Position numbers and translations under genes: made by a program. From a virus, in IMG/VR virus record IMGVR_UViG_3300035696_000005, positions 96,001 to 160,000 of that record: a stretch of DNA of 64,000 bases; one strand, given 5' to 3'. The notes below the pieces were generated by a model, which was not told where the DNA came from, did not search any database, and saw nothing but the letters and a program-made list of their open reading frames with translations. Each line of letters opens with the position of its first letter. Positions within the stretch are counted from its first letter, which is position 1. Shown here in pieces: positions 14,640 through 47,934 of the stretch.

Positions 14640-16382
14640 TTATGACTGGATGACTTGAAGCTCGGTAACGCTGTTATCCACTTTGGCGATGAGAACTTGA
14701 GCGCGAGGAAGCCTACTTGCGTATTCATCCATCAGCTCAACGTCATCAATGAAATAGAATTGTGGGGCTTTTGCAACGAGCCTTTGAAAGGTTTTGCAAA
14801 GCTCCAAGCCGATTTTCTTTCTTCTGCCACGGGATAAAGATGTGTACGGAACGAGCCTCTCATCCGTAACCAAGAATTCCTCGTCAACGAAACTGAACAA
14901 AACTCCAGGAGTTTTAAGCATCTCAAGCGTTTGCTTGACTTCAAGCTCAGGCATCTTAAGGAGGGCTGCCTCAAATTTCTTGAGTTCCTCCGTAAGCTTC
15001 AGCTTCTGCTCAATCGCCGTCTTGTACATCTTTTCACGGGCTACCAGTTGTTCTTTCTTTTGTTGAAAGAGCTGATGCGCGTGAAATTTTGCTCTGAGAT
15101 CCGAAAGCTTCGTTCTTAACGCCTGCTCGTCTCCTTCTGGCTTTGGCGGAGGGGTTGGCTTTCTAACTTCCTTGGGCTGAAGTGAGGTGAGCCTCTCCTG
15201 AAGAATTCTTCGTTTTGAGTCATTAACTGCCGATAACGTACGATGTGAGGAAATCTGCTGAAATAGTTCTCTAATACTGTTTTCGCAGATGCGTATCCGC
15301 TCAGATCGCCCCTGGTTACGGTCTTGGATTTCCCTCGCTTTTTGATTGTACTCATTGATTGCTTTCTCCCTTGCACGAGCCGCTGTTTCTCTGAGTTTTG
15401 GTGGAACCAGTTGCCCACACTTTGGACAGCTTCCCTCCGGCATCTCCGTAAAGGTCGGTGCAGGAGGAACAGTTTCCATCTCGCTTAAAAGACGAGTCTT
15501 CTCAGTCTCCAGGGAGCTATTCTGTGCCTCAAGATCAGTGACCCGAGTTTGAGACGTAGTTCCCAAAGACTTAAGTTCAGTCTCAATTTTCTTCTTTTCA
15601 CCATCAAGTTTAAGGTTGTCCTCATGATTCTCCCTGGCTTTGGTCATGGCAGTCTGGTATTTAGAAAGTTCCGATGTGTAAAGATCAAACAGGTCCACCT
15701 GTGCGGTGAGCTGTTCAATCTCAAGGCGTGCTCCATCCAGATCCATCGAGGCAAGATCGCCCTTGAAATCAGAAAGCTGCGTTTCAATCTGAGCTAAAGC
15801 CCCCTGATCCGCAGCCAACTGGTTCTGAGCAATCCGCCTCTCAGTTGCAATGACTTGGGCGTCAACTCTCAAGTTCTCAAATTTGATCTTAGGATGAAGA
15901 GTCATCCCAGAAACGAGAGAACTTAAAAGTGCCTTACGATCCACCTTGGCCACTTGACCAATAACCTCAAGCCTTTTTGCCTGAGACAATGTATCCATGA
16001 AGAAGCCTTCGTTATAACAACTTGCGAAGACTTCAAAAGAGATACCAAGCAGCGCCGTAAGCTCAGTTTGATTAAGCTTAATGGGTGGAACGCCGTTACG
16101 GATTAAGTTGACCGTAGCCGTCTGGCCTCGCCTTTTGATCCTTTCAAACGAGGCTTTGTCGGTAGTGATGATGACACCACCAACCTCTTCTCCAGTAGAG
16201 ATCAAATGATCCGGATTTTTGCTTCCTGCAGAATCAGTTCCAAAGAAGCCAAACGAGATCCCTTCGTTGATTGAGGTTTTACCAATCTCGTTCGGACCTT
16301 TAATGACATTCAGTCCTGGACCAAAGTGAACGGTCTTGTCACGATGGCCACGGAAATTCTTAAAAGTCATGGAAAGGATCAT
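14640..16382 (-). CDS. sbcC: SbcC/Rad50-like (gp46-type) SMC ATPase
   Basis: Walker A GPNEIGKT, coiled coil with CPKC zinc hook, LSRG signature, Walker B FIDDVE. Confidence 0.9.
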   Translation of the reverse strand: MILSMTFKNFRGHRDKTVHFGPGLNVIKGPNEIGKTSINEGISFGFFGTDSAGSKNPDHLISTGEEVGGVIITTDKASFERIKRRGQTATVNLIRNGVPPIKLNQTELTALLGISFEVFASCYNEGFFMDTLSQAKRLEVIGQVAKVDRKALLSSLVSGMTLHPKIKFENLRVDAQVIATERRIAQNQLAADQGALAQIETQLSDFKGDLASMDLDGARLEIEQLTAQVDLFDLYTSELSKYQTAMTKARENHEDNLKLDGEKKKIETELKSLGTTSQTRVTDLEAQNSSLETEKTRLLSEMETVPPAPTFTEMPEGSCPKCGQLVPPKLRETAARAREKAINEYNQKAREIQDRNQGRSERIRICENSIRELFQQISSHRTLSAVNDSKRRILQERLTSLQPKEVRKPTPPPKPEGDEQALRTKLSDLRAKFHAHQLFQQKKEQLVAREKMYKTAIEQKLKLTEELKKFEAALLKMPELEVKQTLEMLKTPGVLFSFVDEEFLVTDERLVPYTSLSRGRRKKIGLELCKTFQRLVAKAPQFYFIDDVELMDEYASRLPRAQVLIAKVDNSVTELQVIQS

Positions 16383-18917: not shown

Positions 18918-18995
18918 TGGCGCGCCCGTTCGGACTCGAACCGAAAACTAGCCTTTTTTAGAGAAAGGCTCCTCTACCAATTGAGGTACGGGCGC
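18918..18995 (-). tRNA. tRNA-Sup (CUA), amber suppressor with 6-bp anticodon stem
   Basis: GCGCCCG acceptor, CCTC/GAGG D stem, GCCTTT-CTCTAAA-AAAGGC, TTCGAGT T loop, G73, CCA. Confidence 0.85.
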
Positions 18996-27145: not shown

Positions 27146-27964
27146 TTAATTCACCGCCGTGTAACTTGAGATCATGATATTCAGTCGATCAAGCCTATTG
27201 AGCCTGCTTGTCTCCTGAATCCTCCGACTGGAGTTGCCGATCACATAGGTGAAGGCGTTGTAAATGTCCCAAACCGTGGTAGCAGATTGGAAGCGTACCT
27301 TCTCCTTCTCGATATCCCTTGGGCTTGCAATACCATATTCTTTGGCTGCCATCTCTGTAAGCCTTTCGATCTCATGGGGTCTAAGGGTAAGATCCGCCCA
27401 TTGTTCCCAGATGCGACCCGTACGCTGGAACGCAGCAATGACCGCCTCAGGTGTAGGAAGGTTGATCTCAGGCTCTCCGTGCCCAACGTGTTTGATGTTG
27501 AGCCCGAAGATACTATCCATCGCCGTCGCACCATTCATGCAGCGAAGAACAAGACATCCCACTCGCAGGGTCAACGGAGTGGTTGTGTTGTAGGAATTGG
27601 TTCCCCAGGTACGAAGAGCAACGACGTCGCCCAGGCCCCGACCAACGCCCGGAATGTTATGGCCTGGCATATTGAACGTGATGCTTCGGAATGTATGCTG
27701 GACGATGACTCTGGCACCGTCTTTTTCCTGGAAGAACTGGGTGTCAGGATTTACTCCGCCCAGAGCGCGAGCAAACGGCTCGAAAGCATCGATCATGCGC
27801 TCGTGTTTAATCAGCTTGTAGCGATCACTCACGATAGCCAGATGTTTTCTTGTGTCAGTTCTAGTGACACTTTTGACTCGTGGAATTTCCCGGTCAAACT
27901 CGTCGAACACAGGACGAAGGGCGACCGGGAAGTTATAAACGGAAGGGTTTGTAGTAGGAAGCAT
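27146..27964 (-). CDS. DUF932-family protein
   Basis: LAIVSDRYKLI..., NSYN...LRVGCLVLRCMNG, TVWDIYNAFT. Confidence 0.85.
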   Translation of the reverse strand: MLPTTNPSVYNFPVALRPVFDEFDREIPRVKSVTRTDTRKHLAIVSDRYKLIKHERMIDAFEPFARALGGVNPDTQFFQEKDGARVIVQHTFRSITFNMPGHNIPGVGRGLGDVVALRTWGTNSYNTTTPLTLRVGCLVLRCMNGATAMDSIFGLNIKHVGHGEPEINLPTPEAVIAAFQRTGRIWEQWADLTLRPHEIERLTEMAAKEYGIASPRDIEKEKVRFQSATTVWDIYNAFTYVIGNSSRRIQETSRLNRLDRLNIMISSYTAVN

Positions 27965-28008
27965 AGTGATTCTCCTTGATACAATACTTATAACAGAGAA
28001 ATAAGGCG

Positions 28009-44700: not shown

Positions 44701-46335
44701 TTACAACTCAACCGAATTAACAACTGATTCGACATCCATTCCAAGCGTACCTACAGCTCCGAATAAGGCTGGAGTGAGCGTGTTATACACAATCATGGAA
44801 TCACAGTTTGGAACTGCCGACCAAGGATTTGAAGCTTGGTTGATCAGAATCAGCTTTGAACGTGAATTGACATTCTTTTGATACTTCAAGAATGCCTGAT
44901 CCAGCGGTGTTCCCTGATTTTGGGCTTCATCGGTGATGATGATGAACTTATCCACATGCTTATCTTCAGCCAACGCTTTTTCGATAATCATGGCCGGGTT
45001 GGTATAGCCAGCAGCATAAGGATATTCAAGTACCATCTTCATGTCGGTCTTACGGTTTCCAGTCCAGCGAGGAAATGCTGCAGCACCACGAGATGCCCCA
45101 ACGGAGCTTCCTTCGAAATGAAGCCTGCTATTTTCAAACCAGCTAAACCGAACGTCTCTAGCTTTACCATAGAATGCGTAAGCAAAAACGTTAGCAACTA
45201 GATACGACCATTGGTCAGAGTTTCCAAGACCACCGCGCATTGAGCCTGAGCTGTCAACACTGACTTCAATAACGTCATCAGCGATCCCATCGATTGGAGT
45301 GTCGAAAGAAGAAGCTAAAGCTTCAGCCTGGATTCCCTTGATCTGTGGATGACTCGTATGAACGTAGCTCTTGACGATGTCCAGCGGATTCATCCTTCCG
45401 CGCACAATAGCTTCAGGAGAAAGCATCTCACGATACTTCTCGATCGCACCGGTGAGCTCGAATACGCCGTGCTCGATGAATGAACGAGTATTCAAAAGAA
45501 GACCTTGAGTACCGCAGCTCATCATCAATGCAAACCACCAGCGTGGGTTGCTGCAAGGGACTGGCTTAAGCGTATCAAACGGAAGCTTATTCTCCAGGAT
45601 GATTCGACCCACAGCATCCAAATCGAAGTTCGGACGCTGCGCCATCGAGAGCACCTGCTCGTATGCCTTCTGCTGTGTTCCGTAAGGAACACCCTTACGG
45701 GTTCCTTCCTGCCCAGGGAACACGTAATCAAGCAGCGGGTTATTCCAGTCCGGGTGAGTCAAGCGAAGGAGGATTCGCATGTCATCCTTGTACTGGATCG
45801 TATAGCGCTCAAGCTTCTCAGGGCTCCAGCTCTTCATGACCTTACCGACCCAGCCTTGCTGGCGGTAGCCGAGACCCTTCGTGTACTTCTTTTGCATCTC
45901 GACATATTCCCGAAGCTGCTTCGGGTGATAAGTCGAAAGAAGATCCACAATGACGTCCCTGTAGTCAGCACAGAAGTCCTTGTTTGCGGACAGCGCAATA
46001 ACGCCAAGCTTAGGCGACATCTTGATATTGCTTCGACGAGCAAGCACAAGCGCCTTAAGCAGAAACAGAGGGTTGGTCTGTGCTGCTTCAGAGAACCTCT
46101 TTAGCATCTCGGAGGCTTGCTTATCTGCATCGCTGTAATACGTATTTCCAATCACACCGCACTGAGACATACGGAAAATATCACGAGCAAACGAAGGAGT
46201 GAATGCCGCGTATCCATGAGGATTGGTTGTGGTCGGAGTTTTTCCGCTTGCGTGCTTTTCCATAAGCTTTCCGCCACGGCTTGAAGCAGGCTTTGGTTCC
46301 CGGGTATTTCGAAATGCGTCGACGTTGTTTGCCAT
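44701..46335 (-). CDS. rsr: Ro60/TROVE-domain RNA-binding protein (Rsr-like)
   Basis: TTTNPHGYAAF, NTYY, FLLKALVLAR...MSPKL TROVE helices; C-terminal vWA VSVDSSGSM...FIIITDE; SD GGGAG before ATG 46335. Confidence 0.85.
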   Translation of the reverse strand: MANNVDAFRNTREPKPASSRGGKLMEKHASGKTPTTTNPHGYAAFTPSFARDIFRMSQCGVIGNTYYSDADKQASEMLKRFSEAAQTNPLFLLKALVLARRSNIKMSPKLGVIALSANKDFCADYRDVIVDLLSTYHPKQLREYVEMQKKYTKGLGYRQQGWVGKVMKSWSPEKLERYTIQYKDDMRILLRLTHPDWNNPLLDYVFPGQEGTRKGVPYGTQQKAYEQVLSMAQRPNFDLDAVGRIILENKLPFDTLKPVPCSNPRWWFALMMSCGTQGLLLNTRSFIEHGVFELTGAIEKYREMLSPEAIVRGRMNPLDIVKSYVHTSHPQIKGIQAEALASSFDTPIDGIADDVIEVSVDSSGSMRGGLGNSDQWSYLVANVFAYAFYGKARDVRFSWFENSRLHFEGSSVGASRGAAAFPRWTGNRKTDMKMVLEYPYAAGYTNPAMIIEKALAEDKHVDKFIIITDEAQNQGTPLDQAFLKYQKNVNSRSKLILINQASNPWSAVPNCDSMIVYNTLTPALFGAVGTLGMDVESVVNSVEL

Positions 46336-46350
46336 AAATCTCCCTACATA

Positions 46351-46396
46351 AAAAAAGAGAGGGACATAGCTTGCACAATGCAAGGTGGCCCCTCTC
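46351..46396 (-). terminator. Terminator between Y-RNA-like array and Ro60
   Basis: AGAGAGGG/CCCTCTCT outer stem followed by U6. Confidence 0.65.
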
Positions 46397-46408
46397 TGAG
46401 TTGAAAGA

Positions 46409-46471
46409 GCCACTGTGAATTGTAGAACCGGTTTTTCGTTTCAAGTGATGAACGGTTCCACGAAGAGTGGC
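46409..46471 (-). ncRNA. Y-RNA-like unit 4
   Basis: GCCACT/AGTGGC outer stem; GTGGAACCG/CGGTTCTAC inner stem; AACCGTTCATC motif. Confidence 0.7.
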
Positions 46472-46491
46472 GAACTTGGTACTTCAATTGT

Positions 46492-46624
46492 TTTACTACT
46501 ATAAACGGATCAACCGGTTTTTAGCGTCCTAGCCATTAGACGACCTAGACCAAGGTCTTGGGTGAGATTCGAACTCACATTTCCATCTTGTGTAGATGAA
46601 CGGTTAATTAACCAGAGTAGTAAA
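46492..46624 (-). ncRNA. YrlA-like Y RNA (unit 3) with a circularly permuted tRNA module
   Basis: TTTACTACT/AGTAGTAAA outer stem; order T arm (GTGAG-TTCGAAT-CTCAC), closed acceptor (CCAAGAC-CTTG-GTCTAGG), D arm (GTC-TAATGGCTAG-GAC). Confidence 0.8.
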
Positions 46625-46639
46625 TTTTCAAACAACAAA

Positions 46640-46699
46640 GCTACTGTGAATCGGACAACCGGTGTTCAGTGTATAGATGAACGGTTATCCAAGAGTAGC
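46640..46699 (-). ncRNA. Y-RNA-like unit 2
   Basis: GCTACT/AGTAGC; GGATAACCG/CGGTTGTCC; TTCA/TGAA. Confidence 0.7.
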
Positions 46700-46720
46700 G
46701 AACTTCAAAAACTTTTTGTG

Positions 46721-46789
46721 GGGAGCTACTGTGTTTTGATCAACCGGTTTTCATTTTTGCCGATGAACGGTTAATCGAGAGTAGCTCCC
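46721..46789 (-). ncRNA. Y-RNA-like unit 1
   Basis: GGGAGCTACT/AGTAGCTCCC 10-bp stem; same internal motifs; starts just after TATAAG at 46798-46803. Confidence 0.7.
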
Positions 46790-46845
46790 TCAACTTACTT
46801 ATAACAGAGTACCGGAAGATTGTTCCTAGTCAACTCTTTTTTAAA

Positions 46846-46938
46846 TGGCGGAGAAAGCTGGACTCGAACCAGATCCGGTCAAAGCCGGACTCAGAGTTTA
46901 GCAAACTCGCTATGCCGCCCGAGCATAGTTCATTCTCC
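46846..46938 (-). tRNA. tRNA-Ser(GCU)
   Basis: Loop TTGCTAA; long variable arm; G73. Confidence 0.9.
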
Positions 46939-46943
46939 AAATA

Positions 46944-47033
46944 TGGCGGAGGGTTACGGAGTCGAACCGTCACGCTTTCGCGTGTGGTGCCTGTTTTCAA
47001 GACAGGTAGTCGTCCACACAACACAAACCCTCC
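46944..47033 (-). tRNA. tRNA-Ser(UGA)
   Basis: CCTGT-CTTGAAA-ACAGG; long variable arm. Confidence 0.9.
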
Positions 47034-47040
47034 AAACTTT

Positions 47041-47114
47041 TGGTTGGGCTACTCTGGATCGAACAGAGGTTAACACCTTCAGAGAGTGCAGTCTTGCCAC
47101 TAGACGATAGCCCA
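47041..47114 (-). tRNA. tRNA-Gln(CUG)
   Basis: GCACT-CTCTGAA-GGTGT. Confidence 0.88.
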
Positions 47115-47122
47115 ACATAAAC

Positions 47123-47196
47123 TGGTAGGGGATACCCGTGCTGCCCGGGTGCGACAACTTTCAAAGAGTTGCAGGCTACTGTTACCTCAATCCCCA
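47123..47196 (-). tRNA. tRNA-Gln(UUG)
   Basis: CAACT-CTTTGAA-AGTTG. Confidence 0.88.
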
Positions 47197-47208
47197 ACAT
47201 CAAAACTA

Positions 47209-47284
47209 TGGTGCCGCGAATCCGGATCGAACGGATACCTCTTGCTCTTCAGGCGAGCGTGCAGACCAACTACACCATCCCGGC
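47209..47284 (-). tRNA. tRNA-Phe(GAA)
   Basis: Loop CTGAAGA. Confidence 0.9.
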
Positions 47285-47296
47285 ACATTAAAATTT

Positions 47297-47383
47297 TGGT
47301 GCCCGCATAAGGAGTCGAACCTTATTGCCCCGAAGAGAACGCGTTTACAGCGCGCCGAGTTCACCGGAACTCTCACTGCAGGC
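47297..47383 (-). tRNA. tRNA-Tyr(GUA)
   Basis: GCGCG-CTGTAAA-CGCGT; variable arm. Confidence 0.9.
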
Positions 47384-47393
47384 ACATTAAACT

Positions 47394-47469
47394 TGGCGCA
47401 TGGGTTGAGACTCGAACTCAACTTTCCCGAGTTAACAGCTCGGTTCCATCACCCGATGGATACCCATGC
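47394..47469 (-). tRNA. tRNA-Asn(GUU)
   Basis: CCGAG-CTGTTAA-CTCGG. Confidence 0.9.
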
Positions 47470-47470
47470 A

Positions 47471-47548
47471 TGGCTGCGGGAGCTGGGATCGAACCAGCCT
47501 CATTTCGCATTAACAGTGCGACGCACTCACCCTGAACGCTATCCCGCA
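47471..47548 (-). tRNA. tRNA-Asn(GUU), second copy
   Basis: TCGCA-CTGTTAA-TGCGA. Confidence 0.88.
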
Positions 47549-47901
47549 ACATCTAACTTTTCATGCTCCTCTGCGTGACAATTCAAACACAGTAGGACAC
47601 ATTTCTTTGCTTCAGCCAACACAGCCTTGTAAGAGCGCGTAATTCCTTTATTCGATACTCCGAAATCTTTCTTACTAGGGTCCGTATGGTGAAAACTTAG
47701 TGCTCCGTTACATTTGTTATAACCACACTTAGTACATTTACCTCCAAACTCATTAAGAAGCATTTCTTTTACACGCCTTCGTCGTCGTGCAACTGCTTCT
47801 GACCTGCATCTTACGCAGCGGTAATGCTGCTCACACTTAACGAAAATAAAGCTAGTTTTTCCATGCTTGCTGCAAACTCGATCAATATACTTTGTGGGCA
47901 T
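47539..47901 (-). mobile_element. HNH homing endonuclease (leaderless)
   Basis: CTKCGY...LSFHH.DP...KCVLLCLNCH; TATGAT-7-ATG. Confidence 0.85.
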
Positions 47902-47934
47902 GTTGGTTATCATAACACGTTAACCAACCTCCAT

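What the first reader, a model, noticed from the sequence alone, without database searches (positions are those of the whole stretch)
46409..46803. Array of four Y-RNA-like RNAs immediately upstream of a phage Ro60/TROVE gene
Seen: four tandem units share one scaffold on the minus strand: outer stem (G)CTACT/AGTAG(C), inner AACCG/CGGTT stem, a conserved AACCGTTCATC on the 5' side and a 3-4 nt bulge. Compensatory changes keep the pairing (GCCACT/AGTGGC in unit 4; TTTACTACT/AGTAGTAAA in unit 3). A TATAAG promoter-like motif precedes unit 1, and a terminator separates the array from the Ro60 start. Established: Y RNAs are encoded next to bacterial rsr and tether Ro60 to effectors such as PNPase. 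Inference: a polycistronic set of Ro60 ligands with variable effector loops, made in excess of the protein and co-located with the tRNA arrays.
Basis: partly seen in the sequence, partly recalled or inferred. Interest (0 to 1): 0.88.

Follow-up and report, generated by a model that had tools for sequence, protein, structure and literature searches.

The report
Phage Ro60 gene with four Y-RNAs
An uncultured 182-kb phage carries, between a tRNA cluster and a very divergent Ro60 ring-protein gene, four small structured RNA genes built on one shared "handle" (one also holds a tRNA look-alike); this is the known Ro60/Y-RNA partnership in a new sequence guise, and the same handle recurs in other large phages that carry this Ro60 subfamily.

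Summary
Four units (window 46409-46789, minus strand) share a 6-bp outer stem, an asymmetric internal loop, an 8-9-bp middle stem, an invariant UUCAUC and a variable top. They fold far better than shuffles and show compensatory changes.

The gene downstream (44701-46335, minus) is a Ro60 homologue by fold and by profile, although Pfam TROVE misses it.

Unit 3 carries the V/T/closed-stem/D order that defines YrlA-type bacterial Y RNAs. Units 1, 2 and 4 are short YrlB-like hairpins.

A model built from the handle finds the same RNA family in all five large-phage records that encode the nearest reachable Ro60 relatives (32-33% identity), plus one hit in a 27% relative. It finds nothing in eight other viral records. 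A more distant TROVE-positive lineage has five or six Y-like units, with a different handle, directly upstream of Ro60.

Best reading (about 0.8): these are Y RNAs that dock on the phage Ro60. This is a known kind (Chen 2014; phage phiLo Yrl1/Yrl2, 2025). The handle is undescribed, lacks the CGAA motif and is not recognised by Rfam.

This scan has already noted similar phage Ro60 multi-RNA arrays on other DNA. Interest is moderate.

The parts
46796..46809 (-). Promoter-like 14-mer that contains an extended -10 (TGTTATAAG, 46798-46806). It ends 7-9 nt before the first paired base of U1.
   Evidence: Sequence. The short motif alone is not above chance. The 14-mer occurs exactly twice in the 182-kb genome; the other copy is 5' of ORF 27146-27964. 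Function not shown.
46721..46789 (-). Unit 1: short Y-like hairpin RNA with a 10-bp outer stem, a 3/7-nt internal loop, a 9-bp middle stem, UUCAUC, and a small apical hairpin.
   Evidence: Fold -28.7 kcal/mol, z -7.5. R1 82 bits. R2 62 bits.
46640..46699 (-). Unit 2: short Y-like hairpin RNA with a pyrimidine-rich apical loop.
   Evidence: Fold z -5.2. R1 74 bits. R2 65 bits.
46492..46624 (-). Unit 3: YrlA-type Y-like RNA. It has the same handle, closing a tRNA-like insert (46526-46600) made of a V hairpin, a T arm with loop UUCGAAU, a closed 5-bp stem, and a D arm with GG in its loop.
   Evidence: Folds. Local match to Rfam YrlA positions 30-81, 16.3 bits. It was not in the seed of R2 yet scores 30 bits, E 1e-5.
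46409..46471 (-). Unit 4: short Y-like hairpin RNA. Both its outer and middle stems differ from units 1 and 2 by compensatory changes.
   Evidence: Fold z -4.3. Pair counts. R2 70 bits.
46349..46397 (-). Intrinsic-terminator-like hairpin (46356-46397) followed by a U7 run (46349-46355), between the array and Ro60.
   Evidence: Fold -23.8 kcal/mol, z -3.9. The simple scan missed it because the loop holds a second stem.
44701..46335 (-). Ro60-like gene (544 aa). The ATG is at 46335, preceded by GGGAG at 46340-46344.
   Evidence: Pfam vWA_Ro60 30.4 bits; TROVE not hit. phrog_850 8e-14. Homologues start at the same Met. AlphaFold model pLDDT 75; Foldseek top hits 2nvo, 1yvp and 9kop at E 1e-13 to 1e-10. 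Profile against PDB, Rsr at 4e-30.
46847..47548 (-). Context: a tRNA cluster on the same strand directly upstream. No terminator-like site was found between it and unit 1.
   Evidence: ARAGORN and Rfam. Terminator scan. Sequence.

Best explanation
The four units are genes for Y RNAs, small non-coding RNAs that dock on the phage's own Ro60 ring protein.

Transcription and processing (inferred). They are transcribed on the minus strand, from an extended -10 promoter just before unit 1, by read-through from the tRNA cluster upstream, or both. The transcript is then cut into separate RNAs of about 60-135 nt. A terminator after unit 4 lets only part of the transcription reach the Ro60 gene, so the RNAs would outnumber the protein.

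Shared handle (shown). Every unit has the same handle: a 6-bp outer stem, an asymmetric internal loop, an 8-9-bp middle stem, and the invariant UUCAUC that follows the middle stem's 5' strand. This handle is the likely Ro60 docking site (inferred).

Variable top. The top of each unit is the effector module. Unit 3 carries a YrlA-type permuted tRNA mimic. Units 1, 2 and 4 carry short YrlB-like hairpins.

Function (inferred). By analogy with Rsr-Y RNA-PNPase in Deinococcus and Salmonella, and with phage phiLo, the RNAs would gate the Ro60 cavity. They would also tether the ring to host exoribonucleases or tRNA-binding enzymes during infection.

What is shown and what is inferred. Shown here: the structures, their covariation, the Ro60 fold, the YrlA-type module order, and co-occurrence of the handle family with this Ro60 subfamily. 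Inferred: transcription, processing, binding and the effector.
For: - Structure and covariation within the window.
- Only these four units occur in the 182-kb genome.
- The neighbouring protein is Ro60 by fold and by profile.
- Unit 3 has the V/T/closed-stem/D order that Chen et al. 2014 (PMC4201824) give as the YrlA hallmark. Rfam YrlA aligns locally to its T, stem and D parts.
- Cross-phage test: model R2 was built from 3 window units and 3 units of two other records. It recovers 8 further non-seed units, window unit 3 among them, all on the Ro60 strand.
- On the 16-row alignment of R2 matches, which includes two weak hits at E 0.6-0.9, 96% of cells pair and 13 of 15 pairs change on both sides. 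No shuffle out of 500 reaches this, and slid controls pair at most 43%. The alignment is fitted to the model.
- R2 hits all 5 records with a 32-33% identical Ro60, and gives 1 hit in a 27% relative. It hits 0 of 3 records with more distant Ro60 and 0 of 5 unrelated viral records.
- An independent lineage with a TROVE-positive Ro60 has 5-6 Y-like units of the same architecture directly upstream of the gene. Its first unit scores 30 bits on Rfam YrlA.
- Literature precedent. In M. smegmatis, YrlA and YrlB lie upstream of rsr and come from one precursor. In phage phiLo, Yrl1 and Yrl2 lie upstream of Ro60, bind it, and form a complex with host PNPase (PMC12135203).
Against:
- The published Ro60-recognition motif (GNCGAAN0-1G, or its CGAA core) is absent from all four units (sequence).
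- Rfam YrlA reaches only 16 bits against a threshold of 69.
- Pfam TROVE does not hit the protein.
- In relatives, many units sit 12-65 kb from Ro60 inside tRNA clusters, so the partner could be another protein shared by this phage group.
- The co-occurrence sample is small, was chosen through Ro60, and may reflect common descent of the phages.
- The contigs of the closest Ro60 relatives (55-72% identity) could not be fetched.
Confidence: 0.8

Rival explanations
1. The units are real structured RNAs of the phage tRNA operons, but they work with a partner other than Ro60, for example a tRNA-processing or modification enzyme, or as decoys for host tRNA nucleases. On this reading their place beside Ro60 in this phage is incidental.
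For: In relatives most copies lie inside tRNA clusters, interleaved with tRNA genes on the same strand and 12-65 kb from Ro60. Several carry tRNA-like bodies. The CGAA motif is missing in the window.
Against: In this genome all four copies sit between the tRNA cluster and Ro60. A second, unrelated handle type also sits directly upstream of Ro60 in another lineage. A closing stem with a tRNA-like top is the published YrlA design, and YrlA is bound by Rsr. R2 found no units in the 8 records without this Ro60 subfamily.
Confidence: 0.12
2. The repeats act as DNA: operator or partition-type protein-binding sites, or repeated extragenic palindromes, and are not transcribed into stable RNAs.
For: They are imperfect palindromes, and they fold about as well on the plus strand.
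Against: The stems change sequence while keeping their pairing, including G-U pairs, and the loops stay constant. This is the pattern expected of an RNA, not of a DNA-binding site. Unit 3 holds a T arm and a D arm that read correctly only on the minus strand, which is also the strand of the tRNAs, of Ro60 and of the U-tailed terminator. In relatives every unit lies on the strand of its neighbouring tRNA genes.
Confidence: 0.03
3. The array is a cis-regulatory leader of the Ro60 mRNA: attenuator hairpins, or an autoregulatory switch in which Ro60 binding to unit 4 controls the terminator. It would not be a set of free RNAs.
For: A terminator lies directly after unit 4 and before the Ro60 ribosome-binding site.
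Against: Folding unit 4 together with the terminator keeps both intact and shows no competing structure. Relatives carry the same units far from any Ro60 gene, and downstream rather than upstream of it. Four units with different tops are not needed for a single switch.
Confidence: 0.03
4. It is a type III toxin-antitoxin-like module: a repeat array of antitoxin RNA, then a terminator, then a protein gene.
For: The layout promoter, RNA repeats, terminator, protein gene matches ToxIN-type loci (the layout of such loci is from my own knowledge).
Against: The protein is Ro60-like, not an endoribonuclease toxin. The units differ in length (60-133 nt) and in sequence, whereas such antitoxin repeats are near-identical.
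Confidence: 0.02

Closest known systems
YrlA / YrlB of Salmonella Typhimurium and Mycobacterium smegmatis with Rsr (Chen et al. 2014, PMC4201824; Rfam RF02553)
   Same: The RNAs are encoded within a few kb of Ro60 on the same strand. Their 5' and 3' ends pair into a closing stem. One RNA carries a permuted tRNA mimic in the order V, T, closed stem, D, and the others are plain hairpins with small pyrimidine-rich loops. In M. smegmatis they lie upstream of rsr and come from one precursor.
   Different: There are four RNAs here instead of two. The GNCGAAN0-1G motif is absent; the invariant element is UUCAUC after the middle stem, with AACCG/CGGUU in this phage. Rfam YrlA scores 16 bits against a threshold of 69. 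The protein is so divergent that Pfam TROVE misses it. A terminator separates the RNAs from the gene.
Thermus phage phiLo Ro60 with Yrl1 and Yrl2 (NAR 2025, PMC12135203; PDB 9KOP, 9L5Y)
   Same: A phage-encoded Ro60 with several Y-like RNAs just upstream of the gene, each with a stem, internal loop, stem design. The predicted fold of the window protein matches 9KOP at E 4.5e-11.
   Different: The phiLo RNAs were identified through their CGAA motifs, and binding to Ro60 and to host PNPase was shown experimentally. Here the motif is absent and nothing has been tested. The window has four RNAs, one of them a tRNA mimic, at the end of a tRNA cluster.
Deinococcus radiodurans Rsr with Yrn1/Yrn2 and PNPase (RYPER)
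   Same: Several small RNAs lie upstream of rsr. One has tRNA-like features and one is a long hairpin. This system is the model for the proposed tether-and-gate mechanism.
   Different: No phage PNPase, RtcB or Rnl2-type ligase was found in this genome (PNPase was not searched). Any effector would have to come from the host.
Y-like arrays upstream of TROVE-positive Ro60 in large-phage contigs found here (L009, L011, L012, L013)
   Same: Five or six tandem units lie on the Ro60 strand, with the same outer stem, asymmetric loop, middle stem, constant hexamer and variable cargo, next to tRNA genes.
   Different: The handle sequence differs: it is CGAGG-like followed by UACUUC, closer to the Rfam YrlA consensus. 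There is no terminator before Ro60. Neither R1 nor R2 detects these units.

Membership tests
Y RNA (Ro60-bound non-coding RNA, functional class) | Encoded close to a Ro60 gene, on the same strand | tested here: met
   The units end 74 nt upstream of the Ro60 ATG, on the minus strand.
Y RNA (Ro60-bound non-coding RNA, functional class) | The 5' and 3' ends pair into a long stem interrupted by an internal loop or bulge, and a variable module closes the top | tested here: met
   Folds. Covariation within the window and across six phage records.
Y RNA (Ro60-bound non-coding RNA, functional class) | Conserved 5'-strand recognition motif (GGUCCGA in animals; GNCGAAN0-1G, or its CGAA core, in bacteria and phage phiLo) | tested here: not met
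   None of the four units has it. Relatives keep only a CG at that place, and two of them have CGAA. The family's invariant elements are UUCAUC and a few handle bases.
Y RNA (Ro60-bound non-coding RNA, functional class) | Physical binding to Ro60 and Ro60-dependent accumulation | not testable with these tools
   This needs pull-down, EMSA or northern blots.
YrlA (Rfam RF02553) | Score at or above the family's gathering threshold (69 bits) | tested here: not met
   16.3 bits, a local match to model positions 30-81 only. Nothing was found at gathering level in the window.
YrlA (Rfam RF02553) | tRNA-like module inside the closing stem, in the order V stem-loop, T arm, closed 'acceptor' stem-loop, D arm | tested here: met
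   Unit 3 at 46526-46600 has the four hairpins in this order, with T loop UUCGAAU and GG in the D loop. The order is as described in PMC4201824.
YrlA (Rfam RF02553) | tRNA-type modifications (pseudouridine 55, dihydrouridine) | not testable with these tools
   Requires RNA from infected cells.
Ro60 / TROVE protein | Pfam TROVE domain (PF05731) | tested here: not met
   No hit at E 0.001 for the window protein. Three distant homologues in alignment A1 do carry it.
Ro60 / TROVE protein | Ro60-type vWA domain with a MIDAS motif | tested here: met
   PF25045 scores 30.4 bits against a cut-off of 27.7. D361, S363 and S365 are invariant in 10 and in 15 homologues.
Ro60 / TROVE protein | Helical-repeat ring plus vWA fold over the full length | tested here: met
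   AlphaFold model pLDDT 75. Foldseek's best 12 listed hits are all Ro60/Rsr, at E 1.6e-13 to 1.5e-9 with about 520-560 aligned columns and TM about 0.5. The profile hits 2nvo at 4.4e-30.
Type III toxin-antitoxin RNA arrays (ToxIN-like) | Near-identical short direct repeats followed by an endoribonuclease toxin gene | tested here: not met
   The units are 60-133 nt long with 53% mean column identity. The protein is Ro60-like.

The most novel reading that the evidence does not exclude
The four RNAs are one sample of a large, undescribed adaptor library. A divergent phage Ro60 ring would be programmed by many RNAs that share one handle. Their cargo runs from mini-hairpins to permuted and native-order tRNA bodies. 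They are transcribed as part of tRNA operons; in this phage that may be behind the leader-peptide attenuator that another report places upstream of the cluster. Y-RNA supply, and with it Ro60 activity, would then be tied to tRNA shortage or damage, for instance as a counter to host tRNA-cleaving defences.
Probability: 0.15. Interest if true: 0.75.

Novelty: new variant of a known kind. Interest (0 to 1): 0.45.

Why it matters
Ro60 and its Y RNAs are a conserved RNA-surveillance particle and a human autoantigen. What the RNA's variable part does is still open.

This locus shows a Ro60 subfamily whose partner RNAs have a different docking sequence and come in sets of four or more with exchangeable tops. 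That gives a natural series for two questions: which handle bases Ro60 reads, and what each top recruits.

It also supplies a covariance model (R2) that finds such RNAs where Rfam finds none. With it, unannotated 'spacers' in the tRNA clusters of large phages can be annotated.

The gain is an extension of known biology rather than a new principle.

Tried and rejected
Searches that did not reach close relatives
- BLAST of the locus and of the protein against 50,697 phage records found no match.
- phmmer of the single protein against PDB gave only noise; the alignment profile was needed.
Six protein-guided scans found none of them: viral contigs and genome contigs. A first protein scan of viral contigs found nothing. 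The scans with alignment A1 returned only distant relatives at 26% identity.

DNA pattern scan
- A scan of viral contigs for the handle core gave 7 loci. None has a Ro60 relative in its flanks, and R1 matches only the pattern itself. I treat these as chance matches.

Models and motifs
- R1, built from the window only, does not detect the units of any other lineage. A cross-lineage seed (R2) was needed.
- The TATAAG motif alone, and TTGACT plus spacer plus TATAA, are not above chance. The -35-like TTGACT lies 24 nt away, too far for a standard sigma-70 promoter.
- Minus- versus plus-strand folding energies do not settle the strand.
- R2's weak hit at window 15033-15085 (13.7 bits, E 0.9) has no UUCAUC handle and was rejected.

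Other
- RtcB and Rnl2-type RNA ligase are not encoded in this phage.
- Two reviews (PMC10870794, PMC6047535) are not held. The supplements of Chen 2014 are not held.

Full report
**Where the window lies.** The window is bases 96001-160000 of a 182,359-bp virus record that is rated complete. The region of the finding lies on the minus strand. It sits between a tRNA cluster (46847-47548) and a 544-aa ORF (44701-46335).

**The observation.** Read on the minus strand, there are four units:
- U1, 46721-46789
- U2, 46640-46699
- U3, 46492-46624
- U4, 46409-46471

Each folds on its own into the same nested shape:
- an outer stem of at least 6 bp;
- an internal loop of 3-4 nt on the 5' side (longer in U3) and 7-8 nt on the 3' side;
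- a middle stem of 8-9 bp whose inner five pairs are AACCG/CGGUU;
- the constant UUCAUC, which opens a small hairpin;
- a variable top;
- an A-rich stretch before the 3' strand of the middle stem.

The folding energies lie 3.1 to 7.5 standard deviations below dinucleotide shuffles. The four folds persist when the entire 457 nt is folded at once.

On the alignment of the four units (A3), 88% of cells are standard pairs and 8 of 19 pairs change on both sides. No shuffle out of 500 reaches the covariation score. Sliding the 3' partners drops pairing to 18-49%.

A covariance model of the four (R1) finds them at 73-82 bits and finds nothing else in the 182 kb. The one exception is the '3-4 nt bulge', which holds for U1 and U2 only.

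**Signals around the array.**
- Promoter-like site. The TATAAG is part of TGTTATAAG, an extended -10 shape, ending 7-9 nt before U1. As a short motif it is not above chance, and the TTGACT further upstream is 24 nt away.
- Repeated 14-mer. The 14-mer that contains the motif occurs exactly twice in the genome. The second copy is just 5' of another minus-strand gene. This gives modest support for a promoter.
- No terminator before U1. No terminator-like site lies between the last tRNA and U1, so read-through from the tRNA operon is equally possible.
- Terminator after U4. A 10-bp G+C-rich hairpin with an inner stem is followed by U7 (46349-46397; -23.8 kcal/mol). Then come GGGAG and the ATG at 46335.
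- Start codon. Homologues begin at this same methionine. The longer GTG-started ORF in the mechanical list is therefore not the gene.

**The protein.** Several results agree that it is a divergent Ro60.
- Pfam sees only the Ro60-type vWA domain (30.4 bits) and not TROVE. PHROGs gives 'RNA-binding protein' at 8e-14.
- Direct homologues are few. Six lie at 38-76% identity. Below these come proteins at about 26%, some of which do carry TROVE.
- An exhaustive search counts 15 representative clusters at E 1e-30 or better and 363 at E 0.001 or better.
- The DxSxS MIDAS residues are invariant.
- The family profile hits D. radiodurans Rsr at 4.4e-30, Xenopus and human Ro60 at about 1e-26, and phage phiLo Ro60 at 6e-17, nearly end to end.
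- In an AlphaFold model (pLDDT 75), the best 12 Foldseek hits listed are all Ro60/Rsr over about 520-560 columns. After them come isolated vWA domains.

**Unit 3.** Its 84-nt insert is made of four parts:
- a 7-bp hairpin that starts with the constant UUCAUC (the 'V' position);
- a T arm with loop UUCGAAU;
- a closed 5-bp stem-loop;
- a D arm with GG in its loop.

This is the order V, T, closed acceptor-like stem, D that Chen et al. 2014 describe as the hallmark of YrlA. Rfam's YrlA model aligns locally to exactly the T, stem and D parts. The score is only 16.3 bits against a threshold of 69, so formal membership is not met. Units 1, 2 and 4 are plain hairpins; the apical loops of units 2 and 4 are pyrimidine-rich. 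Chen et al. report the same design for YrlB and Yrn2.

**Evidence from other phages: a distant lineage.** Close relatives could not be fetched (see Tried and rejected). Four contigs encode a TROVE-positive Ro60 that is 26% identical (L009-L013; L010 is the same contig as L009). They carry five or six tandem units directly upstream of the gene on its strand. The units have the same architecture but a different handle: a CGAGG-like strand followed by UACUUC. The first unit scores about 30 bits over the whole Rfam YrlA model. tRNA genes follow the Ro60 gene there.

**Evidence from other phages: nearer relatives.** After the exhaustive protein search supplied intermediate relatives, a last scan returned ten viral loci.
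- A strict structural screen required UUCAUC preceded by an 8-mer perfectly paired to a downstream 8-mer, inside a perfect 6-bp outer stem. It recovered the four window units and seven units in L018-L022, all on the Ro60 strand, with two doubtful hits elsewhere.
- A cross-lineage model (R2; three window units plus three from L018 and L022) then found eight further non-seed units at 22-41 bits, window U3 among them.
- On the model-fitted alignment of all 16 R2 matches, two of which are weak hits at E 0.6-0.9, 96% of cells pair and 13 of 15 pairs change on both sides. Slid controls pair at most 43%. The fit to the model inflates these numbers somewhat.
- Across the 14 solid units, the invariant positions are A4, C5, C7, one A and one C in the middle stem, UUCAUC, GGU on the 3' strand, and GU in the outer stem.

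**Linkage to Ro60.**
- Over whole records, R2 hits all five genomes whose Ro60 is 32-33% identical to the window's (15 hits). It gives one hit in a 27% relative.
- It hits none of three records with more distant Ro60 and none of five unrelated viral records.
- In the relatives many units lie 12-65 kb from Ro60. They sit inside tRNA clusters, interleaved with tRNA genes on the same strand.
- One such unit closes a native-order D/anticodon/T body in the handle. Another is built as V/T/stem/D, like window U3.
- In the window's own genome all copies are the four beside Ro60.
- The co-occurrence is supportive but not proof. The genomes were chosen through Ro60, the controls are few, and shared ancestry of the phages could produce the same pattern.

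**What is known.**
- Chen et al. 2014 reported YrlA-like RNAs near Ro60 in 254 bacteria and 22 phages. [quoted passage not shown] In M. smegmatis both lie upstream of rsr and come from one precursor.
- In 2025 the Ro60 of Thermus phage phiLo was shown to bind two Y-like RNAs encoded just upstream of it, and to assemble with host PNPase.
- Jumbo phages with TROVE proteins have been catalogued.
- In the held library I found no description of this handle, or of multi-member handle-closed RNA sets in phage tRNA clusters.
- This scan's own notes list similar phage Ro60 multi-RNA arrays on other DNA, and the same locus read in an overlapping window. I used these as leads only.

**Verdict.** The locus is a Ro60/Y-RNA module of the known kind, in a new variant:
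- four RNAs on one undescribed handle that lacks the CGAA motif;
- a Ro60 too divergent for Pfam TROVE;
- a terminator between the RNAs and the gene;
- membership of a wider RNA family that Rfam does not detect.

Transcription, processing, binding and the effector are all inferred. Interest is moderate.

Noticed in passing
window 46847-46938 (-): A tRNA-Ser(GCU)-like gene with a long variable arm and an encoded CCA end. ARAGORN and Rfam's tRNA model (at threshold) both miss it. It scores 31 bits on the tRNA-Sec model and has an unusually long D stem.
   Followed up: partly
window 18918-18995 (-): ARAGORN calls a 'tRNA-Pyl' with anticodon CUA, which may be an amber-suppressor tRNA of the phage.
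   Followed up: no
L009 2169-2903; L011 1839-2882; L012 2237-2857; L013 808-1545: Large-phage contigs with a TROVE-positive Ro60 carry five or six tandem Y-like units directly upstream of the gene. Each unit is preceded by an AAAAATTCG-like string and has a handle different from the window's.
   Followed up: partly
L028 1491-2307 (-), L029, L030, L031: In relatives, units of the UUCAUC handle family are interleaved with tRNA genes 12-65 kb from Ro60. L028 1956-2067 closes a native-order D/anticodon(UAU)/T body in the handle, and ARAGORN calls it tRNA-Ile.
   Followed up: partly
window 27985-27998 (-) and 46796-46809 (-): The exact 14-mer CTCTGTTATAAGTA occurs only twice in the 182-kb genome, both times just 5' of a minus-strand unit. 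It may be a phage promoter element.
   Followed up: partly
L026 1-326 (+): A tmRNA gene (102 bits, cut at the locus end) on a 129-kb viral contig that also encodes a distant Ro60 relative, next to tRNA genes.
   Followed up: no
window 47539-47913 (-): An HNH endonuclease gene (phrog_2255, 1.6e-25) whose 3' end abuts or overlaps the first tRNA-Asn of the cluster.
   Followed up: no
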